Shown here one piece after another: positions 1,528 through 63,889 of a stretch of 64,000 nucleotides of DNA; the first letter of the stretch is position 1, and each line of letters opens with the position of its first letter. The DNA comes from Escherichia phage vB_EcoM_TH18: sequence record ON075799. One strand, written 5' to 3'. A program made the position numbers and the translations under genes. Under the pieces are notes generated by a model, which did not search any database, was not told where the DNA came from, and was given only the letters and a program-made list of their open reading frames with translations.

Positions 1528-1535
1528 ATTAAAAA

Positions 1536-2320: not shown

Positions 2321-2445
2321 ACTCGTCCATATTAAAGCCTTCTACTAAAGATAGTAGATGTCTAGGGTTGGACCGCAAACGCAACCCCATGGAATTTGTT
2401 ACGGTCTTCAGTTGACCCAAGCGGATTTCATTGACATCTTTTAAC

Positions 2446-2520
2446 TGGAGCATCCAGAGGGTATCGAACCCTCGACTTCAGCTTGGAAGGCTGTAGTTTT
2501 CCCAATTAAACTATGGATGC
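2446..2520 (-). tRNA. tRNA-Gly (anticodon UCC)
   Basis: Minus strand: acceptor gcatcca/tggatgc, D-stem gttt/aaac, anticodon loop CTTCCAA, T-arm gaggg-TTCGATA-ccctc, CCA encoded. Confidence 0.7.
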
Positions 2521-2525
2521 ATATT

Positions 2526-2601
2526 TGGTGGGAGTGGTAGGCTCTGCCCCTACGTCCTCTCGATTATCGGTCGAGCGATCTACTAACTGATCTACACTCC
2601 C
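2526..2601 (-). tRNA. tRNA-Ile-like (anticodon GAU), atypical T-loop
   Basis: Minus strand: acceptor gggagtg/cactccc, D-stem gatc/gatc, anticodon stem ctcga/tcgag loop CCGATAA, T-stem gtagg/cctac but loop GGCAGAG lacks TTC; CCA encoded. Confidence 0.5.
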
Positions 2602-2665
2602 AAACTGTACTGGCCCAACAACCACGATTGGAGGGTATCGTCACACATCAAAGCCAGTACAGTTT
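2602..2665. repeat. 13-bp-stem hairpin (aaactgtactggc / gccagtacagttt, 38-nt loop) filling the spacer between two tRNAs
   Basis: Exact inverted repeat read from sequence; no T-loop, so not a tRNA. Confidence 0.55.
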
Positions 2666-2669
2666 TAGT

Positions 2670-2759
2670 TGGTGTGCCGTGATAGAGTCGAACTACCCGA
2701 GTCCCTTTCGAGACAGGAGATTTACAGTCTCCCCCGCTACCCCTACGGTCTAACGACAC
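2670..2759 (-). tRNA. tRNA-Tyr (anticodon GUA), type II
   Basis: Minus strand: acceptor gtgtcgt/acggcac (one G-U), anticodon stem ggaga/tctcc loop CTGTAAA, long variable region, T-arm ggtag-TTCGACT-ctatc, CCA encoded; D-arm irregular. Confidence 0.6.
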
Positions 2760-2760
2760 A

Positions 2761-3108
2761 TTAACCTTGTTTGAATTGAACAATATCCGTCGAGAACGGT
2801 TTAGCTGCCTTAATAGGTGCTTTTTCTGAGTTATCTTTTTCGAGTAACTCTTCGTTTTCCTCATCAAAGTAATCAGAAAGCATCTGCTCACCTTTCTCAA
2901 TAACATAACGAGCTATATTTTCTCTGATATTGTCTTTTGTATTCACATTCTTCATCAAATCCCTAAGAACCTGATGAGCTTCAGGAATCATTGCAATCAG
3001 ATTCGTTTTTAAATCTAGGATATTTTTCTCTAACTGAATTGCATTAGATTCCTCTTTCAGAGGACGACCTTTTCCTCTTCTACGTTTTGTAAGCTGCTTA
3101 GTAGCCAT
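2761..3108 (-). CDS. hypothetical protein (115 aa from internal ATG; acidic C-terminal half)
   Basis: ORF 2761-3333 trimmed to the Met at 3108 because the upstream part overlaps tRNA-Cys. Confidence 0.45.
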   Translation of the reverse strand: MATKQLTKRRRGKGRPLKEESNAIQLEKNILDLKTNLIAMIPEAHQVLRDLMKNVNTKDNIRENIARYVIEKGEQMLSDYFDEENEELLEKDNSEKAPIKAAKPFSTDIVQFKQG

Positions 3109-3193
3109 TTTAAAACCCCACTTAATGATATTATCAAATAAAAACATATCTGTCAAGTGGTATTTTAACATATTTACCAAGAAATTGAAAGTT

Positions 3194-3270
3194 TGGAGCA
3201 CGGTGTCGGACTTGAACCGACATATATCTGTTTTGCAGACAGATCCGTAACCAAATTCCAGCAACCGTGC
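3194..3270 (-). tRNA. tRNA-Cys (anticodon GCA)
   Basis: Minus strand: acceptor gcacggt/accgtgc, anticodon stem tctgt/acaga loop CTGCAAA, T-arm with TTCAAGT loop, CCA encoded. Confidence 0.7.
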
Positions 3271-3356
3271 AATAAGTACCCCAGGTAGAGAACCTATAGA
3301 GTGGGTCTTACGAGCCGCGCTGACGATTCTCAAGTTGGGGTTAATCTGGTCGAGGA

Positions 3357-3433
3357 GACAGGATTCGAACCTGTGACCTACGGCTTAGAAGGCCGCTGCT
3401 CTATCCAACTGAGCTACACCCCGAAAATAAGAA
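3357..3433 (-). tRNA. tRNA-Arg (anticodon UCU)
   Basis: Minus strand: canonical D-arm tagctcagttggatagagc, anticodon stem gcggc/gccgt loop CTTCTAA, T-arm acagg-TTCGAAT-cctgt, CCA encoded. Confidence 0.7.
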
Positions 3434-3623
3434 TGCTTTATAGTGTATGGTTACTCAACCTCACTCCAACTTCCACAGTTGGTGCTCTACGAGCATGACT
3501 ACGTTTGAAATCAACGTTGCGCACCGATAGCTTTCTCACGCATTGTATGCCTCATTCCCAACAAATGCTGATCAGACATTTATATCGAATAATATAAGCT
3601 AATACACTATAAAACAAACTTGT

Positions 3624-3720
3624 GGCTGGGTGATGGAATCGAACCACCTATGTATTCAACGGCTTCCCCGTCTATTTTCAGGATTATAAATCCTCGCCCT
3701 TGCCAAAGGGCTTACCCAGC
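3624..3720 (-). tRNA. tRNA-like gene, unusually long (about 97 nt); anticodon loop TTTATAA (UAU?) with about 30-nt insertion before the T-arm
   Basis: Minus strand: acceptor gctgggt/acccagc, D-stem gccc/gggc, 4-bp anticodon stem agga/tcct, extra hairpin acgg-ggaag-ccgt, T-arm ggtgg-TTCGATT-ccatc; CCA not encoded. Confidence 0.4.
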
Positions 3721-3722
3721 AT

Positions 3723-3797
3723 TGGTGCTCGCAGCAGGTTTCGAACCTGCAACCCCCTGCTTACAAGGCAGGTGCTCTACCGTTGAGCTATACGAGC
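3723..3797 (-). tRNA. tRNA-Thr (anticodon UGU)
   Basis: Minus strand: acceptor gctcgta/tgcgagc, D-stem gctc/gagc, anticodon stem cctgc/gcagg loop CTTGTAA, T-arm gcagg-TTCGAAA-cctgc, CCA encoded. Confidence 0.75.
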
Positions 3798-4162
3798 AAT
3801 AAGACATTGCTTCCGATTAACAGCCTTGAGGCTTTACAGACCATATCTTGTGAGCCATAACCTGTGCCAAGGATTTCAGATGATAAACGAAATTTTATCT
3901 TTCAAGAGTCAACTTTCAAGTTTCATCTTTTACATTTAACCATTGACCTTTATTGTATGAACTTTTACTTAGTGGAAACAACAAGGCATCTTCGTGTGCC
4001 TCGCTGCATCTATGTCCTGTATTATCCTCATACATATACGATACATGGTGGGGGATATTTAACCTCCAACCCCCAGGAGGCAAGATGATGTAAACTTCGT
4101 TAATCAAAAGCAATGTTTTAAATTTCAAAACAAAGGAACGATAATGATATTATCAGAGCCTT

Positions 4163-4810
4163 TTAGAGAGAGTGCTCAATCTCAATTTCTGTCTTAGCGT
4201 TTGACTCAGACAACGCAAAATCAACGTTAGACAAGAAATCTTCAATCTCTTCTTCAAGAGAACGAATCTTAGAAGCCAGTTCAAGAGGATCCACAACCGA
4301 TGGTGTGTTCATCATTCGAATAGGAGCTTCCACAGTCTTAATCTGCTCTGCATCTGGCGCTTTATCACGTTGGATATATGGCGCTCTTGCATTTTCAAGT
4401 TTATCTTCCAGAGATTTTTCTTCTTTTGCCAGAAGAAGCTGTGCAGAAGCACGCTGTGCACAAAGTTTGTTTAACAACTCTTGTTTAAAGCAAATCGTCC
4501 GTTTGCGTTCGATTGCCTCAGCAACTGTCATAGACACATTACCAATTTTGACAATTGTCTCAGCATTAGACTTAACAATTTTTGCTTTCAGTTCATCACG
4601 CACTGCCAAGAGGTCTTGCAGACTTTGATAGTCGTTGATCGCAGATTTCTTAAAATCATCAACAGAGCCGATATAACCCGGAATCTTACAATTATTCTCA
4701 GTTCCTTTTGCAATCTTAATACAATCAAGATTGTAGATACGCTTATTGATCTTATCTTCAATTTTAGAGATAGAAGCAAGTGCACGAGTTACGGAAATCT
4801 TAGTAGACAT
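4163..4810 (-). CDS. hypothetical protein (215 aa, predicted coiled-coil, K/E-rich)
   Basis: Long ORF; composition only. Confidence 0.55.
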   Translation of the reverse strand: MSTKISVTRALASISKIEDKINKRIYNLDCIKIAKGTENNCKIPGYIGSVDDFKKSAINDYQSLQDLLAVRDELKAKIVKSNAETIVKIGNVSMTVAEAIERKRTICFKQELLNKLCAQRASAQLLLAKEEKSLEDKLENARAPYIQRDKAPDAEQIKTVEAPIRMMNTPSVVDPLELASKIRSLEEEIEDFLSNVDFALSESNAKTEIEIEHSL

Positions 4811-4883
4811 GCGATCTCTCCTATGTAAATCAGCTTTGATAAAGTAACTATCCAGAAAAACAAAAACTATGTCAAGAAAAATT

Positions 4884-5075
4884 TTAATCTTTTACAGCAT
4901 CTTTTATAGAATCACAAAGATCTTGAACAACATCAGATGTCGGTGACAAAATCATCTCGTCGGCTGCTGCTATAGCATCTGATGCTAAATCAACAAACGG
5001 AGTTGTTACCGCAGAAGTCACTTCAACAGCCGTTATTGTTACTTCGCTTGCAATCTTAAGCAAAGATCCTATCAT
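4884..5075 (-). CDS. hypothetical protein (63 aa)
   Basis: Small ORF downstream of the tRNA-Met gene. Confidence 0.3.
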   Translation of the reverse strand: MIGSLLKIASEVTITAVEVTSAVTTPFVDLASDAIAAADEMILSPTSDVVQDLCDSIKDAVKD

Positions 5076-5151
5076 AATCTCAACCCTCCTGAATATCCGT
5101 GATTCCCTTTATTTAACGACGCTGGCTCACGGTGGCACTCTCGTCAATAAA

Positions 5152-5475
5152 CTATTTTTTAGTTTTCTTACCGTTTTCTACAGAAATGCTTGTTTTCTGT
5201 TTCGCTTCTCGTTCGCGCTTTGTTTTCCCAGTGCGAATACGATATGAAGCAGAAATAACTTCACCACCAATGACACGAGACACAGATTCGTAATACATTT
5301 CAGTATTACCGTCTTCATCTTTGCGTTTTTTCAGAACTGCTACAGTTTGCGTTTTACCACCAAGGCGCACATCGTGCGGTGCAGAATGTGTCTGCGTGGA
5401 TTTTGATCCAAACTGAAAAGGTTGCTTTATCGCCTCGATAGCTGACACCTTTTTAGCAGACTGTTTCTTAGCCAT
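5152..5475 (-). CDS. hypothetical basic protein (107 aa from internal ATG, Lys-rich)
   Basis: Internal ATG at 5475 preceded by GGAGG; Lys-rich termini. Confidence 0.45.
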   Translation of the reverse strand: MAKKQSAKKVSAIEAIKQPFQFGSKSTQTHSAPHDVRLGGKTQTVAVLKKRKDEDGNTEMYYESVSRVIGGEVISASYRIRTGKTKREREAKQKTSISVENGKKTKK

Positions 5476-5527
5476 TAAGTTTTCTCCTCCGAAAACAATA
5501 AACATAGTTTATTTCGTGTGCCACATT

Positions 5528-5604
5528 TGGTGGCCCCTGCTGGACTTGAACCAGCGACCAAGCGATTATGAGTCACCTGCTCTATCCAACTGAGCTAAGG
5601 GGCC
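5528..5604 (-). tRNA. tRNA-Met (anticodon CAU; elongator-type or Ile2-type)
   Basis: Minus strand: acceptor ggcccct/aggggcc (G1-C72 paired), canonical D-arm, anticodon loop CTCATAA, T-arm gctgg-TTCAAGT-ccagc, CCA encoded. Confidence 0.7.
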
Positions 5605-30251: not shown

Positions 30252-30444
30252 ACACCCCTCGCTTGTGCCTGTACATTGCCAGAGGCCATACAGAACTCAC
30301 TATAAAGCATTTCCATGCCCAACCCCATGCAGTTTTTGGTGCATAGACCTGTTCAAGTGTTTTACTATTCTCCATCTCTGCGGTATGCACAAACCATACC
30401 GCAATATACAATGTAACTGTAATGTAGATAAAGCTATTAATCAT
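30226..30444 (-). CDS. small membrane protein (72 aa)
   Basis: Hydrophobic segments. Confidence 0.4.
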   Translation of the reverse strand: MINSFIYITVTLYIAVWFVHTAEMENSKTLEQVYAPKTAWGWAWKCFIVSSVWPLAMYRHKRGVYEEKTGTA

Positions 30445-31498
30445 TCATCTTATCCCAACACATTTGTTGCGCTGTCATCAAGACGTCAGCAGCAAAATCA
30501 AGGTCTGTTGACTTCGGTAAATGCGTGCTCTTGTACAGAGTGTTACGAATATAATCATCCTTCTCTTCTGCCCAAGCCAAGAGCTTCTCCAAAGACCATG
30601 CACCATTCCTGATTGCAAGAAGCTCCTGAGCATCAGGTCTTTTTACTAAGACTTTACCTTCTGCTAGGATCTCCTCAGCCATACGCATCAATCTTACCAA
30701 ATGGAGAGCATGTTTGCAATCGTACCCGTACTTTTCTTCTAAGTCATGCCGAACCAGATTTCTGTTTTTAACCCATGCCCAGTAGTTCTTATGTTTTTCC
30801 TTTGCTTGTTTATGCTCCTCTGCCAGATATTTAACAATTAAAATTGGCTTACGTCTCTTATCCTCGTCAGAGAACTGCTCGTAAGGAACTTTACGAATAG
30901 AACCATCAGAGTTAAACAAGCCAGCATTGTCGTGTGTTCCGATCACGCCATAGATATTATCACCCATGGGTAAAAAGACACACAACTTGTTAAGATCATC
31001 CAACATTTTCTGGAAGTCTTTGTGTTTTGTAAGATTATCATCCATCCACGAGTGTGTCAAGCGCATGAACTCTTTTTGTGTTGGTTGCTCTTTAGGTTGC
31101 GGGTTATTAATCCATTTATTATGGCCTTTGATACGCTTAAGTTGCGCCATCGCATACCCAGAAAAAGTAAAAGCAACTTTGCTGGATAGGAGTTTTGGCG
31201 CTTGCTCGCGTAGGTACTCGTAAACATCTGAAGTTTGCAGAATGTCACCTCTATCAACAAACATAAGCTCGATGATGTTTGGGTTCATATCAACGAACAA
31301 CTTCATGTAGTTTGTTAGCTCATACAGCTTACCATCCTCTTCATCAATAAGGGTCATTTCTCTGTCAACGAAAAATGGGGTAAGAATGCTTTTAGGCTCT
31401 GCACAATAAATTCCGCGAATATCCACATCGGATGTTGGTAAGTTAGTTCCATATGCAATGCTGCCGGAGTAACAGCGCATTAGTTCTAGTTTCTTCAT
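30437..31498 (-). CDS. nucleotidyltransferase-fold protein (Pol-beta superfamily, GS...DxD motif), 353 aa
   Basis: N-terminal YSGSIAYGTNLPTSDVDIRGIY matches the minimal nucleotidyltransferase signature; substrate unknown. Confidence 0.5.
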   Translation of the reverse strand: MKKLELMRCYSGSIAYGTNLPTSDVDIRGIYCAEPKSILTPFFVDREMTLIDEEDGKLYELTNYMKLFVDMNPNIIELMFVDRGDILQTSDVYEYLREQAPKLLSSKVAFTFSGYAMAQLKRIKGHNKWINNPQPKEQPTQKEFMRLTHSWMDDNLTKHKDFQKMLDDLNKLCVFLPMGDNIYGVIGTHDNAGLFNSDGSIRKVPYEQFSDEDKRRKPILIVKYLAEEHKQAKEKHKNYWAWVKNRNLVRHDLEEKYGYDCKHALHLVRLMRMAEEILAEGKVLVKRPDAQELLAIRNGAWSLEKLLAWAEEKDDYIRNTLYKSTHLPKSTDLDFAADVLMTAQQMCWDKMND

Positions 31499-33305: not shown

Positions 33306-34562
33306 TTAGAATAACATATCCCTGCTAATTGCTTTACGAATAGCATCAATACGGGCTACTCGCACAGCTTCACCAATCTCTTTACCCTTCTTACCTTTTT
33401 CCAGAAGAGGGTTTGTGATAGCTTTAGAATCAACTTTTGTCATAGCGTCATAGGCTTCCAACAAAATATGACCTTGAAGGTAAGGTTTATGCCTAAAATC
33501 ACCACCTCTTCCTTTAGCATCACAATAACATGCATCTGCAAGTGTGTAAACCTTCATTTTCTGATCAGCTTGTCCAGCAGCTTCAAATATTTTCATGATG
33601 CTTTTTGGTTTCAAACCGTTGTTACCATCTGTGGGAGAGATGGCGTGCACTTTTGTGTGATTTTCTGCAACATATTTTGCCGTGTCACGATAGATATTAT
33701 AAATCTTTAACCTTTCGCACAAAGATTGGATAACATCCGCACCAGCTTTTTCATGACCATGCAAATTACCATTGTTCTTGTAAGTTACAGCTTTGCCAAA
33801 ATCATGGCAAAGCACAGCAAACTTGGTCAGTGGATCAGCTTCTAATTCATCGGCAACCCGTAACGCTAGAATTGTATGAGTGTAAGCATCCCCTTCTGGG
33901 TGGTGTTCTTTAGGTTGTTGTACACGACGCAGGGCTTCCAGTTCAGGAAGCTCGCCAATACGTCCCATATTGACAGCAAAAGATCTGAAATAATCACTCT
34001 TTAAGGCTTTCAACATTTCATTCCATTTACGCTCGGCGCTTATTTCTGCCAAAGAGTGTCGGTTGTCATAAGCCAGTTTAAAAGTCTCTGGGTGGATATG
34101 CCATTCTTCCCCAAGCTGGGCTTTAAATCTAAACAGGCGTAGAATACGTAACGGGTCTTCAATAAATGCCTGTGATGTATGACGTAATGTTTTAAGTCCT
34201 AAATCAACCTGGCCACCAAAAGGATCAATAATCTCACCACTGTCAACATCCATCGCCATGGAGTTGATGGTTAGATCTCTACGTGCCAAATCCTCTTCCA
34301 GAGTTACATCTGGGCTAAAGCATACCTCAAATCCTTTATGGCCTTCGCCTGTTTTTCTTTCTGTGCGTGCAAGAGCGTACTCTTCTTTTGTTTCTGGGTG
34401 AAGATAAACTGGAAAAGATGCGCCAACTTGTGTGAACCCTCTTTTCAACATCTCTTCATGCGTAGCTCCAACAACAACATAATCACGGTCTGATAATTCA
34501 CGACCCAATAATTTATCTCTAACCGCCCCACCTACCAAATATACCTTCATTTCTTCACCCAC
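33306..34562 (-). CDS. cca: tRNA nucleotidyltransferase (CCA-adding enzyme) with HD domain
   Basis: YLVGGAVRD and RRDLTINS motifs of class II nucleotidyltransferases; C-terminal HD-like histidines; 418 aa. Confidence 0.85.
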   Translation of the reverse strand: MGEEMKVYLVGGAVRDKLLGRELSDRDYVVVGATHEEMLKRGFTQVGASFPVYLHPETKEEYALARTERKTGEGHKGFEVCFSPDVTLEEDLARRDLTINSMAMDVDSGEIIDPFGGQVDLGLKTLRHTSQAFIEDPLRILRLFRFKAQLGEEWHIHPETFKLAYDNRHSLAEISAERKWNEMLKALKSDYFRSFAVNMGRIGELPELEALRRVQQPKEHHPEGDAYTHTILALRVADELEADPLTKFAVLCHDFGKAVTYKNNGNLHGHEKAGADVIQSLCERLKIYNIYRDTAKYVAENHTKVHAISPTDGNNGLKPKSIMKIFEAAGQADQKMKVYTLADACYCDAKGRGGDFRHKPYLQGHILLEAYDAMTKVDSKAITNPLLEKGKKGKEIGEAVRVARIDAIRKAISRDMLF

Positions 34563-57753: not shown

Positions 57754-57808
57754 TTTTCACCACACTTCCAAAACAAGCCCCTCATAAGGGGCTATTGTTA
57801 TAGATTGA

Positions 57809-58498
57809 TTATACTTTAATAATTGGTTCAACAAAGGTAATTGGTTTCATAATTTTACCATTGCCATCCATAAAAGCAACACGTTCACCGACCTGAGCAT
57901 GGATTACAGAATTATAACGCCCTTTTGAACGGCGTTCAATCTCTTTACATTCAAACTCCAACATCTCAAGTTCTTTATCCTTGTAGTCAGGATATTTAAC
58001 AAGTAGTTGTGTGATTGTTGGGAATTTAGAGTCGTTGGAATTAAGAACCTCTTCCATATTGTATCCAAGATTGATATCCAAATTATAGCATAAAGCCACA
58101 ACTTGTTTCAAAATCTCTGCATAATCAGAGATCGTCAACTTATCTTTGTGCACCAGGTCAAGTAAGCTGCCAATTTTCAACTCAACCATGTCTGATGGGA
58201 CCATACATGACTCCCATTTTTCAGTGTCCCATTGCACCAAACGCAAAGCGTAAGAGCTTACGACAAAAAGATCACATGCTGCATCAATAACCCCTGCCTT
58301 GTCGGATGAGGATAAGGCCTCAATAAGCTCAGAAAGCTCCTCTTTAATAAGATTTGTTTGTAGTTTAATATCTGTTGACATTCCTCCACGCCCAATCCTT
58401 GCCACCTCATTCCATTGGGCAACACGATGACCATATGCAATCATGTTATCAGGCTTGCTCATGGCTTCAAGTGTGGAATACATATTTTTTAAATTCAT
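57809..58498 (-). CDS. MazG-like nucleotide pyrophosphohydrolase (putative)
   Basis: EELSELIEA ... DAACDL spacing resembles the MazG EExxE/D motif pair. Confidence 0.4.
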   Translation of the reverse strand: MNLKNMYSTLEAMSKPDNMIAYGHRVAQWNEVARIGRGGMSTDIKLQTNLIKEELSELIEALSSSDKAGVIDAACDLFVVSSYALRLVQWDTEKWESCMVPSDMVELKIGSLLDLVHKDKLTISDYAEILKQVVALCYNLDINLGYNMEEVLNSNDSKFPTITQLLVKYPDYKDKELEMLEFECKEIERRSKGRYNSVIHAQVGERVAFMDGNGKIMKPITFVEPIIKV

Positions 58499-58891: not shown

Positions 58892-60181
58892 TTAATATAT
58901 AGGGTCCCACGTCAAAGAATCTACCTCACGAACACATTTACCAACAGGGAATTGCGGAACACCGTCATCAGTCCTTGCTTGGTAGGTAAAAGTTATATAT
59001 TTGCCGATAAGTTTTTTCATATTCTCTTGTGAGCGTTCTTCGTGTGTGCCTCTCATCTTACAGTTAAATTGTGTACCATCCTTCTCAGCACACAACAGGA
59101 CACCTTCTCCATTCTTATCCTCAAAAGAATCAATAACTCTGGCCTCACCATCCTGAAACAGTTTCCACTTTTGGAGATCAGAGGATCTTTGCCCGAACTC
59201 ATACTTTCCGTGAAAGTTTCGTATTACAACACCCTCATAACCTGATTCCATAAACTCCTTGATGAGCATTTTAACACGATCCTCACCAGACACTATTGCT
59301 CCGTGCACTACTTTAATTAGGTTATAAGGCCATGTATATTCAGAGACTTTCTGTAAATTATTAAACCTACACCCGTTTGTGTCAGAAGACATCCATGGTG
59401 TGTCATCTTCCGAAGGGATATCGAAAATATGATATTCTAAGTCTAAACTTGAATAACCACAATACTTATTAATATTTTTCTCTGGTTTCTTTGTGATAGG
59501 ATGTTCTAACCCTTCGGAGTCTTTCCAAAATTCATCACCATTGTTAATTGCTTTTTCAAATCGCTTTATGTCTGATTGATAGTCTTTTTCTATCTCAGCT
59601 TCTATCTCTTCTGGGGATCTCCATTTTTTAGCTAAGGAGACTATTTTCTGTAAACTTAATCCATGAATATACAATTCCCCATCAAACATTTTCAATCCTG
59701 TCTTTTTGGCTAGTTTAGACATCTGATCAAGCAATTGGCCTTGTACAGGATATGTTTTATTGCCACGACTATTGAATACAGGCACGCCATCATCACAAAC
59801 CAGAACAAGTGCTCTGACACCATCAAGTTTTGGTTGAACATGCAAAGGATACACTAAAGAACTTTTCCTTTTTATGGCATCATGTGCAAGCATTGGTGAG
59901 AAATCTTGTGTTTTTGTCAGGTCATTCTTGGATACACGATAGCCAAGCCTGACTTGTTTTTCCCACTTAGCTTTTGCTTCTAAAGCAGCTTGTTCTTCAT
60001 CCGTTGTTTCGTTCTTCTTTCCAATATTTTTAGCAAAGCATTTGGTACGTTTATACTGCATTTTACCGTTTTCTTTGCCAAATTCAACTACGATCTCTGA
60101 CCCTTCTGTCCACACATTCCACACTTGGTGTGATCCATCCCTGTTCAGGGCATACAATGTTGGAAGATTATTCTCAGGCAT
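58892..60181 (-). CDS. ATP-dependent DNA ligase
   Basis: Nucleotidyltransferase motifs I (KLDGVR), III (FDGELY), IV (EGVVIR) and V (KWKL). Confidence 0.7.
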   Translation of the reverse strand: MPENNLPTLYALNRDGSHQVWNVWTEGSEIVVEFGKENGKMQYKRTKCFAKNIGKKNETTDEEQAALEAKAKWEKQVRLGYRVSKNDLTKTQDFSPMLAHDAIKRKSSLVYPLHVQPKLDGVRALVLVCDDGVPVFNSRGNKTYPVQGQLLDQMSKLAKKTGLKMFDGELYIHGLSLQKIVSLAKKWRSPEEIEAEIEKDYQSDIKRFEKAINNGDEFWKDSEGLEHPITKKPEKNINKYCGYSSLDLEYHIFDIPSEDDTPWMSSDTNGCRFNNLQKVSEYTWPYNLIKVVHGAIVSGEDRVKMLIKEFMESGYEGVVIRNFHGKYEFGQRSSDLQKWKLFQDGEARVIDSFEDKNGEGVLLCAEKDGTQFNCKMRGTHEERSQENMKKLIGKYITFTYQARTDDGVPQFPVGKCVREVDSLTWDPIY

Positions 60182-60959
60182 TAAAGTCCTCGCTTGTTAC
60201 GACATGTTTTCCTTCAAGGTGATTCTCTACCAACTCAATAAGTTTTGGGTTACTAAATGCTTCAACCGCCCCACAACGCATTTGGTACACACCAAATTTA
60301 TCATACTGCTCTTGCTCAAAGTAATTGATCGCTGGGTTTATCACAACAAGTTTAATACCTCGTTTTGCGATTGCATGTAACAATTCCCAGTTAAAATCAA
60401 TAACTTGGTTAGAGCAGCCAACAAGAAGCACAAGGTCTTGGGTATTAAGGTCATCAAGCATAGTAAACATGTCCTGATAAAGTAGTGCATTCTCACCGAA
60501 GAACACCACATTCGGCTTGCACCACCAGTAATCATCAGGATCAACACTCGTATATCCAACATCCATAACGCGCTTAGGAAATTCTTCACCATTCTGTACG
60601 ACAATCTCTTTTAGGAAACCATGCACATGGAGAATATCTTTCTTTGGGATTCCAGCGCGTTCAAGTAAATCGTCAACGTTAGTTGTAAGATTACGTACTT
60701 GTCCTGGATAACGGTTATACCATTCTGCTACACGCAGATGCGCCATGTTGGGATGTACAGTCTTCAATTCTTCACGACGTTTGTTATAAAACTCGTGTGT
60801 TTTGTGGTAAAAATTACCACGAAATGCATGAATATTACATACTTCTTCAAGATCATATTCTTCCCAGAGGGCTTTACCTGACGAAGTATCTGTACGGAAT
60901 GTGCGGATACCGCTTTCTGTTGACATACCTGCACCACTGATCACAAGTAATCGACGCAT
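60174..60959 (-). CDS. Sir2-family NAD-dependent protein deacylase / ADP-ribosyltransferase (sirtuin-like)
   Basis: GAGMSTESGIRTFR, TTNVDDLLERAG, HG and KPNVVFFGE sirtuin motifs. Confidence 0.75.
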   Translation of the reverse strand: MRRLLVISGAGMSTESGIRTFRTDTSSGKALWEEYDLEEVCNIHAFRGNFYHKTHEFYNKRREELKTVHPNMAHLRVAEWYNRYPGQVRNLTTNVDDLLERAGIPKKDILHVHGFLKEIVVQNGEEFPKRVMDVGYTSVDPDDYWWCKPNVVFFGENALLYQDMFTMLDDLNTQDLVLLVGCSNQVIDFNWELLHAIAKRGIKLVVINPAINYFEQEQYDKFGVYQMRCGAVEAFSNPKLIELVENHLEGKHVVTSEDFNA

Positions 60960-60967
60960 ACAACCAC

Positions 60968-61375
60968 CTATTGTAATTTTAAAGAGTTACGTAAACGTGC
61001 TTCTTGACGGTCACGAATAAACTGCGGAACAGCATGAATGCTTTCGTTGCCATGATAATTTTCCACAACAACAGATGTTACATCATAGCAGTACTTTTCT
61101 GCTAAGTCAAGATAAGGTTTCAACTCTTTCACAGAAGTTGTTGTGTTTGAAACAATAATCTTTTCAACTCCATTTTGCATATGGAGTTCTACCTTGTCAC
61201 GACACCATTGATGAGCTTTGTGGACATTTTCTTCCTTCCACTCATACACACCTTCTTCGGTGTAATGAAATTGGTCAGCTTCACATACAGGCCAACGACC
61301 ATCATCAGACAACTCTTTAGCAAGAGTTGACTTTCCTGACCCAGAGACACCACGTAAAATAAATAACTTTTTCAT
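60968..61375 (-). CDS. P-loop polynucleotide 5'-kinase-like protein (Pnk kinase-domain-like)
   Basis: Walker A GVSGSGKST at the N-terminus; 135 aa; resembles the kinase domain of T4 Pnkp from memory. Confidence 0.5.
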   Translation of the reverse strand: MKKLFILRGVSGSGKSTLAKELSDDGRWPVCEADQFHYTEEGVYEWKEENVHKAHQWCRDKVELHMQNGVEKIIVSNTTTSVKELKPYLDLAEKYCYDVTSVVVENYHGNESIHAVPQFIRDRQEARLRNSLKLQ

Positions 61376-61385
61376 TAGTTTCCCT

Positions 61386-61718
61386 TTAGTATTGGTGACG
61401 ATAAAACTTTATACCTAGAGTGTTTCCAAAATATTCTCTCGCCAACATAAACTTGTTCACGGCAGATGGGTTAGAGCTATGTACGTGAATTTCTTTAAGA
61501 TTCATGAACTTGCCATCGTGCAATTCACGTTCAACATAGAGGAAAGCATCATAACCTTCCTCATCACCACCCAAATCATTATCAAAATGAATGGAATCAA
61601 TGTCACTATCACTCATAAATTTTAGTAATGAGTAGAAGCTGGAGAGATTCTTACACCATATGGCATTAGGGTATCCATAATCTACTGGATTTCGCAGATC
61701 ATCCAACCACAGTCTCAA
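61386..61718 (-). CDS. hypothetical protein (110 aa)
   Basis: ORF between the kinase and ligase genes. Confidence 0.45.
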   Translation of the reverse strand: MRLWLDDLRNPVDYGYPNAIWCKNLSSFYSLLKFMSDSDIDSIHFDNDLGGDEEGYDAFLYVERELHDGKFMNLKEIHVHSSNPSAVNKFMLAREYFGNTLGIKFYRHQY

Positions 61719-62647
61719 ATTGCACCTCCGAAAAAATCCTCAATAATTTCACGACGGAATTGTTCATGCAAACATTCCCAATGTTCTTTAGAATAGTTAT
61801 CACGTAAATAATTTAAAAGGTTATAATACTCTTCATCAACTTTCTTCTTAGCTTCTTCTGGGTTTCCCCAAATCATATCCCACTTGTTCTTACCGCCACG
61901 CATCAAAAATTTCTTCGCCAAATAGTGTGGCGATTTGATCTTCAAGAGAAGATCTTGCTGTCCTGTAGCAGCACGCACAACAAATCCTTCATGTTTGCAT
62001 TCTTTAGACATTTTCAGGATGTCTGAAAAGTGCATATTTATGTAAATCTCTGGTCGTTTAAAACCGAACTCTTTTGCGATAAGATCAAGAGCTTTTTCAC
62101 TAAGCATAGAAGTTAATTTGTCTTTGTGAAATCGAACACCAATCAAATACACACCAGCCTTTTCTGGTACAATGTGTGGATCTGAAGGAGAGCAAATCTC
62201 AAAGATAAATGTTGTCTTTGGTTCTTCCACACATGATAACAACATTGGCAAATTAGTACATTCTGCCATGATCATACCTTTTGCAAGTTTTGCAAAATCG
62301 GAATCTAAAGTTCCTGTTGTTGAAACAATCAGCTCACCATTGTATGAGCTTACTGCTGCCATAAAGCCATTAACTTTACGTGCTGCATTCACAACCATAT
62401 CTTTTGGAAGATCAGTACCGTTCTCTAAATGGTTGAAAATTTTAGTAAAAGGCCACACAATGATGTTGTCATCACTGTCAACAACCATACCACGGCAATC
62501 AAGCAACCGACTATCTTGACACCACAGATTTTCCCAGAAAACTTTATTGCTGTATTTCAAAACAGACAAACCTTTAAACTCACCACTGGTATAAGTCTTC
62601 TTTTTAACAAGACCTTTTGATACTAAATCTTCAACATTGAATTTCAT
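61715..62647 (-). CDS. RNA ligase-like nucleotidyltransferase (putative)
   Basis: Motif I KVNG, motif IV EGFVVR, motif V LLKIKS; 310 aa; distinct from the DNA ligase at 58892. Confidence 0.5.
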   Translation of the reverse strand: MKFNVEDLVSKGLVKKKTYTSGEFKGLSVLKYSNKVFWENLWCQDSRLLDCRGMVVDSDDNIIVWPFTKIFNHLENGTDLPKDMVVNAARKVNGFMAAVSSYNGELIVSTTGTLDSDFAKLAKGMIMAECTNLPMLLSCVEEPKTTFIFEICSPSDPHIVPEKAGVYLIGVRFHKDKLTSMLSEKALDLIAKEFGFKRPEIYINMHFSDILKMSKECKHEGFVVRAATGQQDLLLKIKSPHYLAKKFLMRGGKNKWDMIWGNPEEAKKKVDEEYYNLLNYLRDNYSKEHWECLHEQFRREIIEDFFGGAI

Positions 62648-62844
62648 TTGTTTTCACCGTCACAATTGCAGAATTGTTTATTCAATGACTCTATTATACA
62701 TGTTGATCTTCTTGCGTCAACAGACTGGCTTGTTAAATCTTTAGCAACTAACAGCTTTTCCACATCATCTTTTCTGATGGATCCATAAGCACCAGAATCC
62801 ATCGTGAAAAAGATTTTATCCTCTGTTATCTTGTGTATTTTCAT
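62644..62844 (-). CDS. hypothetical protein (66 aa)
   Basis: ORF only. Confidence 0.4.
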   Translation of the reverse strand: MKIHKITEDKIFFTMDSGAYGSIRKDDVEKLLVAKDLTSQSVDARRSTCIIESLNKQFCNCDGENK

Positions 62845-62865
62845 TCATAAAATCTCAATAATTAT

Positions 62866-63444
62866 TCAATGACCATCAGCAGTGAAAATGTCTTTTTCCA
62901 TGCACATTTGGTATGCTTCTGGTAGATCCAAAATTCTCCCATGTACATCCCAACCCACATCAAGGATCCGCCCTTTCGCACTGTAAGATCCGTGGCAATG
63001 ACCGTGCAAGAATACAGACCCATAGTGAGATTTATTCCACGCGGCAAACGGGTAATGACTCATACAAATTTTTTGTTCATAATCGTTAAATTCGTAATAA
63101 TCGCACACATCATGACCACGTTTTTTGAATGTTTTAATCGCATCAAAATTGTCATGATTGCCTTTGACAAGGACGATATGCCCCACAAGTTCATCAAGAA
63201 TTTCTTCAAGTCTTTTAATAACTTGCTTGCCATGACCGAAACAGAAATCACCAAGCACAAAAGTCACAGTGTCAGCATTTGCGCCGTGGTTAAATTTCAC
63301 TGTGAGGTCTTGGTTCATTTGTTCAACGGTTTTGTACAAATCACCACGAAAACGTTTTGAACTCTCAAAGTTCAGGATGTTTTTATGCCAGTAATGTAAA
63401 TCAGATGTTACACGGTATTTAGTTCCCATTTCTCTCTCCCACAC
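62866..63444 (-). CDS. calcineurin-like metallophosphoesterase (phosphatase)
   Basis: Motifs SDLH, GDFCFGHG, GNHD, HGHCHG. Confidence 0.8.
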   Translation of the reverse strand: MWEREMGTKYRVTSDLHYWHKNILNFESSKRFRGDLYKTVEQMNQDLTVKFNHGANADTVTFVLGDFCFGHGKQVIKRLEEILDELVGHIVLVKGNHDNFDAIKTFKKRGHDVCDYYEFNDYEQKICMSHYPFAAWNKSHYGSVFLHGHCHGSYSAKGRILDVGWDVHGRILDLPEAYQMCMEKDIFTADGH

Positions 63445-63451: not shown

Positions 63452-63889
63452 TCACTGTCGCTCTAACAAATCTTCTGCTGGATAAGCATACAGCATGTAT
63501 TCCCAACCACGATGATAGTGTCTGTGTTGCCAGTTGATTAATTTTAGACACACAATGTTCACCACGTTCCTGTCCCCATGAATAAAAACACAAGTCTCAA
63601 GGATTGACTTTCCAAACTCAACATGGCTGTCAAGATACAGTTTTGTGTTGTATCTTTTTTCAGCATCCAGCATGATCTGTTTCAGTGCCTGAAATGCCTC
63701 ACAACACACAGATTTTTCATCAGAAATCATTTTGATATTCAAGCATTCACCCCCACCCAGGCAACCACGTAAATCGTGTCTGATCACCACAACATAATCG
63801 GTTTGAAACAAACCTGTTTGACACACAAAACACATCGTCGTAGTGTCATGCCCAAACACAGACAGACATGATACGACGAAGATCCCCAC
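63452..63889 (-). CDS. hypothetical protein (145 aa or shorter); first gene after the right-hand inverted repeat
   Basis: ORF begins at a GTG inside the repeat; the true start is probably an internal ATG. Confidence 0.35.
   Translation of the reverse strand: MGIFVVSCLSVFGHDTTTMCFVCQTGLFQTDYVVVIRHDLRGCLGGGECLNIKMISDEKSVCCEAFQALKQIMLDAEKRYNTKLYLDSHVEFGKSILETCVFIHGDRNVVNIVCLKLINWQHRHYHRGWEYMLYAYPAEDLLERQ

What the first reader, a model, noticed from the sequence alone, without database searches (positions are those of the whole stretch)
60968..63444. RNA-repair-like gene set: metallophosphoesterase, RNA ligase-like protein and polynucleotide kinase as separate genes
One operon encodes a calcineurin-like phosphoesterase (62866-63444), a nucleotidyltransferase with ligase motifs I/IV/V (61715-62647, KVNG...EGFVVR...LLKIKS) and a P-loop kinase resembling the Pnk kinase domain (60968-61375). 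Together these are the three activities of bacterial Pnkp-type and T4 Pnkp/Rnl1 RNA-healing and sealing systems, here split across genes. With a CCA-adding enzyme (33306-34562), a possible PTH2-like protein and about 18 tRNA genes elsewhere in the window, this looks like a tRNA maintenance toolkit against host anticodon nucleases or tRNA-depleting defences. The split architecture and the intervening 110-aa and 66-aa genes are uncharacterised.
Basis: partly seen in the sequence, partly recalled or inferred. Interest (0 to 1): 0.65.

Follow-up and report, generated by a model that had tools for sequence, protein, structure and literature searches.

The report
Phage RNA break-repair gene cassette
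This phage carries a tightly packed set of genes for trimming, phosphorylating and re-joining broken RNA, most likely to mend tRNAs cut by bacterial defences. The arrangement is real and widespread, but it was already predicted in the literature and has never been tested biochemically.

Summary
On the minus strand lie a binuclear metallophosphoesterase (62866-63444), a 66-aa ORF, an Rnl1/Trl1-type RNA ligase (61715-62647), a 110-aa protein and a small P-loop kinase (60968-61375) whose closest sequence and fold relatives are RNA-repair polynucleotide kinases.

The 110-aa gene is a cREC ('cyclic-phosphate processing Rec') domain. A Zn-less sirtuin and a MazG lie in the same unit. An RlaP nucleotidyltransferase lies elsewhere in the window.

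Across 49 distinct ligase lineages from 90 phage loci, the kinase lies within 10 kb in 45, the phosphoesterase in 46 and both in 42, in at least five gene orders. Two lineages fuse kinase and ligase into one protein. cREC and sirtuin occur only in V5-like and Phapecoctavirus-like phages.

This neighbourhood (phage V5/Mydo type) was described computationally by Iyer et al. 2022 as a predicted NAD+-using RNA repair system, so it is a new member of a known, untested kind. Transposon data on Vequintavirus Bas54 rate ligase, kinase, phosphoesterase and sirtuin non-essential in the laboratory and the cREC-like gene intermediate.

One new lead: the ligase family invariantly keeps a His and an Arg at positions matching fungal Trl1's 2'-phosphate-recognition residues, which T4 Rnl1 lacks.

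The parts
62866..63444 (-). Binuclear metallophosphoesterase (MPE), about 187-192 aa. It is the proposed 3'-end healing enzyme, acting as a 2',3'-cyclic phosphodiesterase and possibly also a phosphomonoesterase.
   Evidence: Pfam Metallophos 4e-8 and PHROG 547 1e-44. A family profile hits only Aquifex aq_1665 (1xm7, function unknown) at 4e-18, and no lambda-phosphatase/CthPnkp-type chain. All five metal-binding motifs are invariant: D10xH12, G60D61, G90N91H92, H125, G143H144xH146. It lies within 10 kb of the ligase in 46 of 49 lineages.
62644..62844 (-). 66-aa ORF of unknown function. It overlaps the ligase start codon by 4 nt.
   Evidence: PHROG 20147 (unknown function) 5.5e-17; no Pfam hit. 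Homologues at this position were found only in Mydovirus-type loci, 4 of 90.
61715..62647 (-). ATP-dependent RNA ligase of the Rnl1/Trl1 clade. It has a nucleotidyltransferase domain and a short all-helical C-terminal domain (residues about 240-310).
61386..61718 (-). cREC domain protein ('cyclic-phosphate processing Receiver'). It is a predicted metal-independent opener of cyclic phosphates on RNA ends or ADP-ribose derivatives.
   Evidence: PF20274 1.7e-15 and PHROG 1479 7.5e-27. Invariant D6 D7 R9, D46-N-D48-L-G, N83-P, K89. No solved relative by sequence. Present in only 13 of 90 loci. The function is a published prediction only (PMC7824862, PMC9503650).
60968..61375 (-). Stand-alone polynucleotide 5'-kinase-like P-loop protein, 135 aa.
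   Evidence: AAA_33 4e-10 and PHROG 505 'polynucleotide kinase' 8e-11. Top profile hits in the PDB are Pnkp1 (4xrp) 2.7e-7, T4 Pnk 4e-6 and, lower in the list, CthPnk 1.8e-4. AF2 model pLDDT 90. The Foldseek top 20 are all T4 Pnk or CthPnk, TM 0.72-0.80. Invariant P-loop and D34 (= T4 D35). Fused to the ligase in 2 lineages, e.g. L053:9536-10834.
60174..60959 (-). Sirtuin (Sir2 family) lacking the four-cysteine zinc module. Iyer et al. 2022 predict an NAD+-dependent ADP-ribosyl-transfer role in removing RNA 2'-phosphate.
   Evidence: PF02146 1.6e-25 and PHROG 2162 7e-101. GAGxSxESG, TTNVDDL, H113-G, KPNVxFFxE and GCS are invariant, and there is no CxxC...CxxC. Found next to the cassette in 11 of 90 loci.
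58892..60181 (-). ATP-dependent DNA ligase in the same gene string. It is probably a neighbour rather than part of the RNA pathway.
   Evidence: DNA_ligase_A_M 6e-14 plus the OB domain. It lies within 2 kb of the RNA ligase in only 9 of 49 lineages, against 41 for the kinase and 40 for the MPE.
57809..58498 (-). MazG-type nucleotide pyrophosphohydrolase, the last gene before the terminator. It is listed as a component of this neighbourhood in PMC9503650.
   Evidence: PRA-PH 5e-6 and PHROG 671 1.6e-23. Co-occurs in 13 of 90 loci.
57776..57793 (-). Terminator-like GC-rich hairpin followed by a T-run. It is the probable end of the transcription unit.
   Evidence: 7-bp stem with 5 GC pairs and a T-rich tail on the minus strand.
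63452..63889 (-). Upstream ORF of unknown function. It travels with the sirtuin-containing version of the cassette.
   Evidence: PHROG 7684 8.5e-35; no Pfam hit. Found in the same 11 loci that carry the sirtuin.
30437..31498 (-). RlaP (RNA-ligase-associated Pol-beta nucleotidyltransferase), a distant part of the same toolkit.
   Evidence: PF10127 2.6e-13. The role is a prediction (PMC7824862 section 3.4.9).
33306..34562 (-). CCA-adding-type tRNA nucleotidyltransferase with an HD domain.
   Evidence: PolyA_pol 1.3e-21, PolyA_pol_RNAbd 1.2e-6, HD 7e-8.
18..5604 (-). Cluster of 16 tRNA genes.
   Evidence: ARAGORN finds 15. Rfam adds one at 2529-2601.

Best explanation
This is a phage-encoded heal-and-seal RNA repair cassette, most probably for tRNAs cut in the anticodon loop by host defence nucleases. 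Such nucleases leave a 2',3'-cyclic phosphate and a 5'-OH.

The core is a three-gene module found in many unrelated lytic phages.
1. The small binuclear metallophosphoesterase opens, and possibly removes, the cyclic phosphate at the 3' end.
2. The 135-aa P-loop kinase phosphorylates the 5'-OH.
3. The Rnl1/Trl1-type ligase adenylates itself on K91, transfers AMP to the 5'-phosphate and seals the break.

In V5-like phages, including this one, the module is extended by a cREC protein, a zinc-less sirtuin and a MazG. These most likely handle cyclic or 2'-phosphate chemistry and NAD+/ADP-ribose by-products.

Shown here: domain identities, intact catalytic residues, fold neighbours, conserved linkage and a kinase-ligase fusion.
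Inferred: every enzymatic activity, the substrate (tRNA), the order of steps and the counter-defence purpose.
For: Ligase:
- PF09511 1.2e-17; the family profile hits T4 Rnl1 at 1.3e-13.
- Motif I, III, IV and V residues, plus the counterparts of T4 R54, K75 and F77, are invariant or conservatively substituted in 82 sequences.

Kinase:
- Its best PDB profile hits are Pnkp1 and T4 Pnk; CthPnk also matches, at 1.8e-4.
- The Foldseek top 20 are only T4 Pnk and CthPnk, TM 0.72-0.80, against 0.53-0.63 for gluconate and adenylate kinases.
- The general-base Asp (D34 = T4 D35) is invariant.

MPE:
- All five metal-binding motifs are invariant.
- There is precedent: metallophosphoesterases of RNA-repair systems have 2',3'-cyclic phosphodiesterase activity (CthPnkp and lambda phosphatase, PMC2190708).

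Linkage, in 49 ligase lineages below 80% identity from 90 loci:
- Kinase within 2 kb in 41, MPE in 40, both in 34. Within 10 kb: 45, 46 and 42.
- At least five gene orders, including a divergent arrangement in rV5.
- The adjacent DNA ligase is within 2 kb in only 9.
- Two lineages (13 loci) encode kinase and ligase as one polypeptide of about 420 aa.

Other:
- The family is essentially phage-only: 3 hits, all MAG contigs, in 185,579 species genomes.
- The same window holds 16 tRNAs, a CCA-adding-type enzyme and RlaP.
- In Vequintavirus Bas54 the orthologous ligase, kinase, phosphoesterase and sirtuin are non-essential on E. coli K-12, as expected for a conditional accessory system (HIDEN-SEQ, 10.1101/2025.11.20.689424, Extended Data Table 8).
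- The same neighbourhood was independently interpreted as RNA repair (PMC9503650 section 3.7.3).
Against: - No biochemical or genetic test exists for any member of these three families.
- The MPE's only solved relative (Aquifex aq_1665) has no known function, and the MPE is not detectably of the lambda-phosphatase/CthPnkp type. Its assignment to the pathway rests on neighbourhood alone; it is never fused to a partner.
- In the kinase, T4 Pnk's essential Arg38 and Arg126 (essentiality recalled from memory) have no obvious counterparts. The mostly conserved Arg107 (31 of 36 sequences) is Tyr in this phage.
- T4 Rnl1's Lys119 position is an invariant Thr.
- The C-terminal domain is only about 70 aa and unlike T4's tRNA-specificity domain, so tRNA as the substrate is an inference.
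- Bas54 mutants showed no fitness change on two clinical E. coli strains, so no host in which the genes matter is known.
Confidence: 0.7

Rival explanations
1. This is a yeast-like, 2'-phosphate-dependent variant of the same repair logic. The cyclic phosphate is opened only as far as a 2'-phosphate/3'-OH end, by the cREC protein or the MPE. The ligase then requires that 2'-phosphate, as fungal Trl1 does. The 2'-phosphate left at the junction is afterwards removed by NAD+-dependent transfer. The phage sirtuin would do this in place of Tpt1/KptA, or host KptA would where no sirtuin is encoded. MazG, MPE or cREC would clear the ADP-ribose cyclic-phosphate by-product. This is essentially the proposal of Iyer et al. 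2022, sharpened here by residue evidence in the ligase.
For: - The sirtuin, cREC, ligase, kinase, MazG and MPE form one tight gene string here and in V5/Mydo-type phages (PMC9503650).
- The ligase family has an invariant His158, 8 residues after the motif III Glu. MAFFT aligns it with Trl1 His227 (C. thermophilum LIG), where T4 Rnl1 has Ile (A7).
- It also has an invariant Arg250, exactly 12 residues after the second motif V Lys. That matches Trl1 Arg337 (K325+12), where T4 Rnl1 has Ser254. Lys246 is invariant too.
- His227, Arg334 and Arg337 enforce the 2'-phosphate requirement of Trl1, and T4 Rnl1 does not join 2'-phosphate ends (PMC11404444 and PMC12440814).
- Motifs I (KxNG), III (E-I/L-C) and IV (EGFV-I/V-R) read more like Trl1 than T4.
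- The top Foldseek hits are Trl1-LIG.
- One point mutation makes a repair MPE a pure 2',3'>p to 2'-NMP diesterase (PMC2190708).
- NAD+-salvage-like genes and Macro domains sit beside the triad in Otagovirus, Thalassavirus and Pakpunavirus loci.
Against: - The His and Arg are invariant in all 82 ligases, yet sirtuin and cREC accompany only 11-13 of 90 loci. The phage-encoded 2'-phosphate removal step would therefore be missing in most lineages.
- The alignment after motif V is ambiguous. MAFFT misregisters it, and anchoring on the conserved Tyr shifts it by one residue. The Arg334 position has no clear counterpart.
- No sirtuin is known to act on RNA 2'-phosphate.
- Plant Trl1 needs a 2'-phosphate without these arginines (PMC12440814), so the triad is neither necessary nor proven sufficient.
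Confidence: 0.25
2. The kinase and phosphoesterase heal DNA ends rather than RNA ends. They would prepare 5'-OH/3'-phosphate DNA breaks for the ATP-dependent DNA ligase encoded two genes downstream, for example after host nuclease attack or during replication and recombination.
For: - An ATP-dependent DNA ligase (58892-60181) lies in the same gene string. A DNA ligase homologue lies within 10 kb of the cassette in 15 of 49 lineages.
- T4 Pnkp acts on DNA as well as RNA ends in vitro (established knowledge).
- Some metallophosphoesterases are DNA repair nucleases, e.g. P. putida MPE (PMC7826289, listed).
Against: - Linkage to the RNA ligase is far tighter: kinase within 2 kb in 41 of 49 lineages and MPE in 40, against 9 for the DNA ligase.
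- The natural fusion joins the kinase to the RNA ligase, not to a DNA ligase.
Confidence: 0.04
3. The ligase-like protein serves mainly as a virion assembly factor, like the tail-fibre attachment activity of T4 gp63 (= Rnl1). The neighbouring genes would then be unrelated early genes.
For: PHROG 562 and many GenBank records carry the label 'RNA ligase and tail fiber protein attachment catalyst', inherited from T4. In T4, transposon insertions are not tolerated in the N-terminal domain of rnlA (HIDEN-SEQ text).
Against: - In Vequintavirus Bas54 the orthologous ligase tolerates insertions at 56 of 60 TA sites and is classed non-essential, so it has no essential assembly role.
- The gene sits among nucleic-acid enzymes, not tail genes.
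- The nucleotidyl-transfer residues are invariant in 82 sequences. That would not be expected for a purely structural chaperone.
- Conserved linkage and fusion to a kinase have no explanation under this reading.
Confidence: 0.03
4. The phosphoesterase, the cREC protein and the sirtuin are counter-signalling enzymes. They would degrade cyclic-nucleotide or ADP-ribose-derived immune messengers, or manipulate NAD+, and would merely be co-located with an RNA ligase.
For: - cREC and sirtuin domains are tied to NAD+/ADPr conflict systems in comparative genomics (PMC7824862 section 3.4.8).
- The window also carries a NAPRTase-family gene and a PRPP-synthetase-like gene suggesting NAD+ reconstitution.
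- Calcineurin-like phosphodiesterases are proposed anti-signal enzymes in phages.
Against: - The MPE tracks the ligase and kinase in 46 of 49 lineages, whether or not any sirtuin, cREC or NAD+ genes are present.
- That pattern points to a shared RNA-end pathway for the MPE.
- This rival remains open for the sirtuin and cREC add-ons only.
Confidence: 0.08

Closest known systems
Sirtuin-centred 'NAD+-utilising RNA-repair' gene neighbourhood of phage V5 / Proteus phage Mydo type (Iyer, Burroughs, Anantharaman & Aravind 2022, Viruses 14:1977, section 3.7.3; cREC defined in Iyer et al. 2021, Viruses 13:63)
   Same: It has the same components in the same kind of phage (Vequintavirinae): sirtuin, T4-like tRNA ligase, cREC, nucleotide kinase, MazG and a calcineurin-like phosphoesterase. 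All are present here as one gene string.
   Different: - That description is centred on the sirtuin and calls the phosphoesterase 'occasional'.
- In my sample the ligase-kinase-phosphoesterase triad is the near-universal core (42 of 49 lineages). Sirtuin and cREC are lineage-restricted add-ons, in 11-13 of 90 loci.
- The kinase-ligase fusion and the Trl1-like His/Arg in the ligase do not appear in the passages of that paper that I read.
- Nothing has been tested experimentally in either case.
Bacteriophage T4 Pnkp + Rnl1 tRNA repair pathway (counter to the PrrC anticodon nuclease)
   Different: - T4 fuses the kinase to a DxDxT (HAD) phosphatase. Here the kinase is a bare 135-aa domain, and the 3' healing candidate is an unrelated binuclear metallophosphoesterase on its own gene.
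- The ligase C-terminal domain is about 70 aa, against about 120 aa in T4, with no detectable sequence match.
- The T4 K119 position is Thr.
- T4 lacks the invariant His158 and Arg250.
- The T4 genes are not adjacent to a sirtuin or a cREC gene.
Bacterial Pnkp/Hen1 RNA repair system (Clostridium thermocellum Pnkp; Capnocytophaga Pnkp1-Rnl-Hen1)
   Same: It uses the same three chemistries with the same two healing folds, a P-loop 5'-kinase and a binuclear metallophosphoesterase. The best sequence-profile hit of the kinase is Pnkp1 (4xrp, 2.7e-7).
   Different: - Pnkp is one polypeptide (kinase-phosphatase-ligase) working with the Hen1 2'-O-methyltransferase. Here the genes are separate, and no Hen1 was seen among the ORFs scanned.
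- The MPE is not of the lambda-phosphatase type.
Fungal/plant tRNA ligase Trl1 (LIG-KIN-CPD) with Tpt1 2'-phosphotransferase
   Same: - Motifs I, III and IV read alike.
- His158 aligns with the Trl1 2'-phosphate-binding His, and Arg250 matches Arg337 by spacing.
- Kinase and ligase are fused in some phage relatives.
- If the sirtuin acts like Tpt1, the pathway would be analogous end to end.
   Different: - The domain order in the phage fusion is kinase-ligase, not ligase-kinase.
- The cyclic-phosphate opener would be an MPE or cREC, not a 2H CPD domain.
- No Tpt1/KptA ART-fold gene was seen among the window ORFs scanned.
- The C-terminal domain is shorter.
- A requirement for a 2'-phosphate is untested.

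Membership tests
Rnl1-type ATP-dependent RNA ligase (Pfam PF09511; T4 Rnl1) | Covalent nucleotidyltransferase motifs I (KxxG with the Lys nucleophile), III, IV and V | tested here: met
   K91-V-N-G94, F-E150-I-C, E220-G221-F-V and K236-I-K238 are all invariant in 82 sequences. They align to T4 K99, E159, E227/G228 and K240/K242.
Rnl1-type ATP-dependent RNA ligase (Pfam PF09511; T4 Rnl1) | Rnl1-specific N-terminal elements upstream of motif I (T4 Arg54, Lys75, Phe77; their essentiality is recalled from memory of Wang, Ho & Shuman 2003) | tested here: met
   R52 and K69 are invariant; position 71 is F (66) or Y (16). They align with T4 'leCRG' and 'PmeKfFN'.
Rnl1-type ATP-dependent RNA ligase (Pfam PF09511; T4 Rnl1) | Lys at the T4 Lys119 position (essentiality recalled from memory) | tested here: not met
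   T4 'KSKGS' aligns with an invariant 'STTGT/S'. The Lys119 position is T111 in all 82 sequences.
Rnl1-type ATP-dependent RNA ligase (Pfam PF09511; T4 Rnl1) | The T4-type C-terminal domain (aa 255-374) that confers tRNA specificity | tested here: inconclusive
   [not shown]
Rnl1-type ATP-dependent RNA ligase (Pfam PF09511; T4 Rnl1) | Joins 3'-OH/5'-phosphate RNA ends, with a preference for broken tRNA anticodon loops | not testable with these tools
   This needs purified protein and defined RNA substrates.
Trl1 / Rnl6-type tRNA ligase (2'-phosphate-dependent) | His-Arg-Arg triad: His about 9 aa after the motif III Glu, and Arg at +9 and +12 after the second motif V Lys (PMC11404444) | tested here: inconclusive
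   His158 (+8) aligns with Trl1 His227. Arg250 (+12) matches Arg337 by spacing. The +9 position is Phe, with an invariant Lys246 at +8. The MAFFT register after motif V is unreliable, and no structural superposition was possible.
Trl1 / Rnl6-type tRNA ligase (2'-phosphate-dependent) | Ligase fused to kinase and 2H cyclic phosphodiesterase domains in one polypeptide | tested here: not met
   The genes are separate in the window. Relatives fuse kinase-ligase in the opposite order, without a CPD domain.
Polynucleotide 5'-kinase clade (T4 Pnk kinase domain, CthPnk, Pnkp1) | P-loop GxxGxGK(S/T) plus the general-base Asp about 20 residues downstream (T4 Asp35, Cth Asp38) | tested here: met
   G9xxG12xG14K15S/T and D34 are invariant in 36 sequences and align to T4 D35.
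Polynucleotide 5'-kinase clade (T4 Pnk kinase domain, CthPnk, Pnkp1) | Arginines that bind the acceptor 3'-phosphate and the ATP beta-phosphate (T4 Arg38, Arg126; recalled from memory) | tested here: inconclusive
   The T4 R38 column holds H, F or Y. The lid region reads 'ENRHGNxxxHxVP', with R107 in 31 of 36 sequences but Tyr in this phage. R127 is R or K in 35 of 36. The correspondence is uncertain.
Polynucleotide 5'-kinase clade (T4 Pnk kinase domain, CthPnk, Pnkp1) | Fold closest to polynucleotide kinases rather than to NMP or sugar kinases | tested here: met
   The Foldseek top 20 are all T4 Pnk or CthPnk (TM 0.72-0.80, E 5e-7 to 2e-5). Gluconate and adenylate kinases score TM 0.53-0.63.
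T4-type bifunctional Pnkp | Kinase fused to a DxDxT (HAD) 3'-phosphatase domain | tested here: not met
   The protein is 135 aa, kinase domain only. All 120 listed homologues are 127-160 aa.
Bacterial Pnkp/Hen1 system | Kinase, lambda-phosphatase-type MPE and ligase in one polypeptide, partnered with the Hen1 methyltransferase | tested here: not met
   [not shown]
Binuclear metallophosphoesterase superfamily (PF00149) | Five metal-binding motifs: DxH, GD, GNH(D/E), H, GHxH | tested here: met
   D10xH12, G60D61, G90N91H92, H125 and G143H144xH146 are invariant in 10 diverse sequences. The Pfam score of 34.3 exceeds the cut-off of 21.5.
cREC (PF20274, cyclic-phosphate processing Receiver) | Pfam match above the gathering score, with the Rec-like acidic residues retained | tested here: met
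   57.9 bits against a cut-off of 27. D6, D7, D46, D48 and K89 are invariant in 12 sequences. The enzymatic activity of the family is itself only predicted.
V5/Mydo-type sirtuin RNA-repair neighbourhood (PMC9503650) | Co-located sirtuin, T4-like ligase, cREC, nucleotide kinase and MazG, with or without a calcineurin-like phosphoesterase | tested here: met
   All six lie between 57809 and 63444 on one strand. The same set is found in rV5, KNP2 and other Vequintavirinae loci.

The most novel reading that the evidence does not exclude
The ligase family would be a phage counterpart of eukaryotic Trl1, recognising a 2'-phosphate/3'-OH end through the invariant His158, Lys246 and Arg250. Repair would then leave a 2'-phosphate at the junction. 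In V5-like phages the zinc-less sirtuin would remove it, as a non-ART, NAD+-dependent RNA 2'-phosphotransferase. Elsewhere host KptA would do so. That would give bacterial KptA, a Tpt1 homologue with no known bacterial substrate (from memory), a physiological role, and would give cREC its first demonstrated activity as a cyclic phosphodiesterase.
Probability: 0.15. Interest if true: 0.75.

Novelty: new member of a known kind. Interest (0 to 1): 0.35.

Why it matters
Many recently characterised bacterial defences cleave or deplete tRNA (PrrC, RloC, PARIS, some retrons, Cas13a collateral cleavage). T4 Pnkp/Rnl1 is the classic characterised phage repair answer.

This cassette is a second, architecturally different solution. 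It is spread over Vequintavirinae, Phapecoctavirus, Pakpunavirus, Otagovirus, Thalassavirus, Saclayvirus and many uncultured phages; the ligase alone matches 732 GenBank phage records. Several of these groups are used in phage therapy, so whether they can shrug off tRNA-targeting immunity has practical weight.

The enzymes are small, separate and apparently self-sufficient, which makes them easy to purify. They may also be useful as tools.

If the sirtuin, cREC and 2'-phosphate idea is right, it would add new chemistry to two well-known folds. As it stands, the finding is a solid and already predicted annotation, not a surprise.

Tried and rejected
- Single-sequence phmmer of the ligase against the PDB found nothing relevant. 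Only a family profile reached T4 Rnl1.
- The cREC protein has no solved relative by sequence.
- NCBIfam gave no useful names for any of the cassette proteins.
- I looked for a PTH2-like protein in 30 further window ORFs and found none. The scan was not exhaustive.
- I looked for substitute healing enzymes in the loci that lack the kinase or the MPE. This gave only a second, different metallophosphoesterase in L075 and an Rnl2-type ligase near the fusion in L043, so nothing decisive.
- Iterated profiles did not extend cREC or sirtuin beyond 13 and 11 loci. Their restricted distribution is therefore not a sensitivity artefact at this level.
- A scan of 185,579 species genomes gave only 3 MAG contigs, so a cellular origin or prophage reservoir was not supported.
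- I could not obtain Burroughs & Aravind 2016 (NAR, RNA repair systems) from the library.
- Model coordinates are not exposed to scripts. I therefore could not superpose His158, Lys246 and Arg250 on the Trl1 sulfate site. As a substitute I pulled real Trl1-LIG sequences out of the PDB with a remembered yeast sequence as a probe and aligned them. The region after motif V aligned unreliably.
- The DNA-repair and tail-fibre readings were considered and rejected on linkage statistics and on the Bas54 transposon data.

Full report
**What is there**

The window is a Vequintavirinae (Avunavirus) phage. Positions 60100-63950 are 100% identical to Escherichia phage 18-1-2. In that record the six ORFs from the kinase gene up to the ORF upstream of the phosphoesterase are annotated 'hypothetical protein', while the sirtuin and DNA ligase genes are named.

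All genes in the region run on the minus strand and are packed tightly. They overlap by 4-8 nt or are separated by 8-21 nt, and the first convincing terminator-like hairpin is at 57776-57793. In transcription order:

| Coordinates | Product | Main evidence |
|---|---|---|
| 63452-63889 | unknown ORF | PHROG 7684 |
| 62866-63444 | binuclear metallophosphoesterase (MPE) | Pfam Metallophos 4e-8; PHROG 547 1e-44; likely start 63429 |
| 62644-62844 | unknown 66-aa ORF | PHROG 20147 |
| 61715-62647 | RNA ligase | PF09511 1.2e-17 |
| 61386-61718 | cREC domain protein, 110 aa | PF20274 1.7e-15 |
| 60968-61375 | P-loop kinase, 135 aa | AAA_33 4e-10; PHROG 505 'polynucleotide kinase' 8e-11 |
| 60174-60959 | sirtuin | PF02146 1.6e-25 |
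| 58892-60181 | ATP-dependent DNA ligase | DNA_ligase_A_M 6e-14 |
| 58508-58879 | unknown 123-aa ORF | PHROG 8041 1.2e-37 |
| 57809-58498 | MazG-type pyrophosphohydrolase | PRA-PH 5e-6 |

**The ligase**

- A single-sequence search of the PDB found nothing. A nine-member family profile matched T4 Rnl1 at E=1.3e-13 over its nucleotidyltransferase domain.
- An AlphaFold2 model built on 36 homologues is confident (pLDDT 91). It shows a short all-helical C-terminal domain, residues about 240-310.
- In 82 distinct family sequences, the motif I, III, IV and V residues are invariant, as are the counterparts of T4 Arg54 and Lys75.
- The protein is thus an RNA ligase of the Rnl1/Trl1 clade, not a DNA ligase or capping enzyme.
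- It differs from T4 Rnl1 in two ways. The Lys119 position is an invariant Thr. The C-terminal domain is about 70 aa, against about 120 aa in T4, with no detectable sequence match.

**The kinase**

- A ten-member profile hits Capnocytophaga Pnkp1 (2.7e-7) and T4 Pnk (4e-6) as its two best PDB matches, and the C. thermocellum Pnkp kinase lower down (1.8e-4). All three are 5'-kinases of RNA repair systems and are matched over most or all of the kinase domain. Other kinases match only the P-loop.
- The AF2 model (pLDDT 90) has T4 Pnk and CthPnk as its top 20 Foldseek neighbours, TM 0.72-0.80. Gluconate and adenylate kinases score 0.53-0.63.
- The P-loop and Asp34 (= T4 Asp35) are invariant.
- T4's Arg38 and Arg126 have no obvious equivalents. 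The mostly conserved Arg107 is Tyr in this phage's clade.

**The phosphoesterase**

- All five metal-binding motifs are invariant.
- Its only solved relative is Aquifex aq_1665 (1xm7, 4e-18), a structural-genomics protein of unknown function. No lambda-phosphatase/CthPnkp-type chain is detected.
- Its role therefore rests on context, plus the precedent that repair metallophosphoesterases are 2',3'-cyclic phosphodiesterases (PMC2190708).

**Linkage**

I collected 10 diverse GenBank phage loci and 80 IMG/VR loci carrying a ligase homologue. I searched their six-frame ORFs with family profiles. At 80% ligase identity these collapse to 49 lineages:

| Neighbour of the RNA ligase | within 1 kb | within 2 kb | within 10 kb |
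|---|---|---|---|
| Kinase | 37 | 41 | 45 |
| MPE | 34 | 40 | 46 |
| Both | not computed | 34 | 42 |
| DNA ligase | 1 | 9 | 15 |

- The orders MPE-Rnl-Kin (17 lineages), Kin-Rnl-MPE (17), Rnl-Kin-MPE (4) and Rnl-MPE-Kin (3) all occur, as does a divergent arrangement in rV5.
- Two lineages (13 loci) encode kinase and ligase as a single protein of about 420 aa, for example L053:9536-10834. This is a classic fusion signal of shared function.
- The MPE is never fused.
- Iterated profiles find cREC in 13 of 90 loci, the sirtuin in 11 and MazG in 13. All are V5-like or Phapecoctavirus-like phages.
- The ligase family is essentially confined to phages. A scan of 185,579 species genomes returned three MAG contigs.

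**Literature**

- The 110-aa domain was named cREC by Iyer et al. 2021 (PMC7824862). They predicted that it opens cyclic phosphates, and noted operonic links to RNA ligases.
- Iyer et al. [quoted passage not shown] They propose that the sirtuin removes RNA 2'-phosphates as KptA/Tpt1 does.
- I found no experimental follow-up.
- The BASEL annotation of Vequintavirus Bas54 already names the genes RNA ligase, polynucleotide kinase, putative phosphoesterase and sirtuin.
- HIDEN-SEQ transposon data class them as follows: ligase 56 of 60 TA sites hit, kinase 33 of 36, phosphoesterase 26 of 27 and sirtuin 48 of 51, all non-essential. The cREC-like gene is intermediate at 16 of 21. There was no significant fitness change on two clinical E. 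coli strains.
- This fits a conditional accessory function. It argues against an essential tail-fibre-attachment role of the kind that T4 gp63 has.

**Mechanism**

The best-supported reading is a heal-and-seal RNA repair cassette with a three-enzyme core (confidence about 0.7). The 16 tRNA genes, the CCA-adding-type enzyme and the RlaP gene in the same window make tRNA the most likely substrate.

What remains open is the 3'-end chemistry.

- **Trl1-like version.** This is supported by a lead I did not find in the passages of the prior papers that I read.
  - Fungal Trl1 enforces its 2'-phosphate requirement with His227, Arg334 and Arg337. The His lies 9 aa after the motif III Glu, and the two Arg lie +9 and +12 after the second motif V Lys. 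T4 Rnl1 does not join 2'-phosphate ends (PMC11404444 and PMC12440814).
  - The phage family has an invariant His158, +8 from Glu150. MAFFT aligns it with the Trl1 His, where T4 has Ile.
  - It also has an invariant Arg250, exactly +12 from Lys238, where T4 has Ser254. Lys246 is invariant as well.
  - Motifs I, III and IV also read more like Trl1 than T4.
  - The alignment after motif V is ambiguous, and I could not superpose structures. This is a lead, not a test.

I give the 2'-phosphate variant about 0.25.

**Verdict**

The finding is a new member of a kind already described in the literature, still without experimental validation. Interest is moderate to low for novelty, but the system is widespread and cheap to test. 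The ligase end-specificity question and the sirtuin and cREC activities are the parts that could yield something new.

Noticed in passing
window 41892-42132 (-), with ORFs 41353-41871 and 40613-40993: A group I intron (Rfam RF00028, 79.8 bits) interrupts the anaerobic ribonucleotide reductase gene nrdD. The gene is split into separate ORFs that match NRDD profile positions 263-415 and 449-562. A second gap, 40994-41352, has no Rfam match. The upstream ORF 42085-43260 was not scanned.
   Followed up: partly
window 30437-31498 (-): There is an RlaP-family (PF10127, 2.6e-13) RNA-ligase-associated Pol-beta nucleotidyltransferase, predicted in the literature to restore nucleotides lost at cleaved tRNA ends.
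   Followed up: partly
window 6514-8229 (-) and 8293-9102 (-): A NAPRTase-family protein (571 aa) sits next to a PRPP-synthetase-like protein (269 aa). The pair resembles the phage NAD+ reconstitution pathway 1 (name recalled from memory). In Otagovirus REC (L005), Vibrio phage Cody (L007), Pakpunavirus phiMK (L004) and KNP2 (L010), PRPP-synthetase-like genes lie within a few kb of the RNA repair triad. All but phiMK also show a NAPRTase-family gene alongside, and REC and Cody add a Macro domain gene.
   Followed up: partly
window 2529-2601 (-): Rfam detects a tRNA (53.4 bits) that ARAGORN did not report. This brings the tRNA count to 16.
   Followed up: no
window 60968-61375 (-), residue 107 of the kinase: The 'ENRHGN' Arg is conserved in 31 of 36 family members but is Tyr in this phage and its closest relatives. 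If this Arg is the lid arginine, the kinase here uses a different residue or is weakened.
   Followed up: partly
L053:9536-10834 (also L043, L045-L047, L049-L051, L057, L059-L061): Uncultured-phage contigs encode the kinase and the RNA ligase as one polypeptide of about 420 aa. No family-type metallophosphoesterase lies within the available flanks (up to 10 kb). L043 has an Rnl2-family ligase (PF09414, 3e-34) 1.7 kb downstream.
   Followed up: partly
window 60174-60959 (-): The sirtuin keeps the NAD+-binding and catalytic motifs, including His113. It has lost the four-cysteine zinc-ribbon module typical of Sir2/CobB enzymes.
   Followed up: partly
window 63452-63889 (-): An ORF of unknown function (PHROG 7684) occurs in exactly the 11 loci that also carry the sirtuin. 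It may belong to the lineage-specific extension of the cassette.
   Followed up: no
window 1536-2093 (-): A DUF7338 protein (E=7e-65) is embedded in the tRNA gene cluster.
   Followed up: no
window 38048-38833 (-) and 35701-36648 (-): A PhoH-like ATPase and a ClpP-like protease lie in the same early-gene region. The same pair also neighbours the repair cassette region in Otagovirus REC (L005).
   Followed up: no
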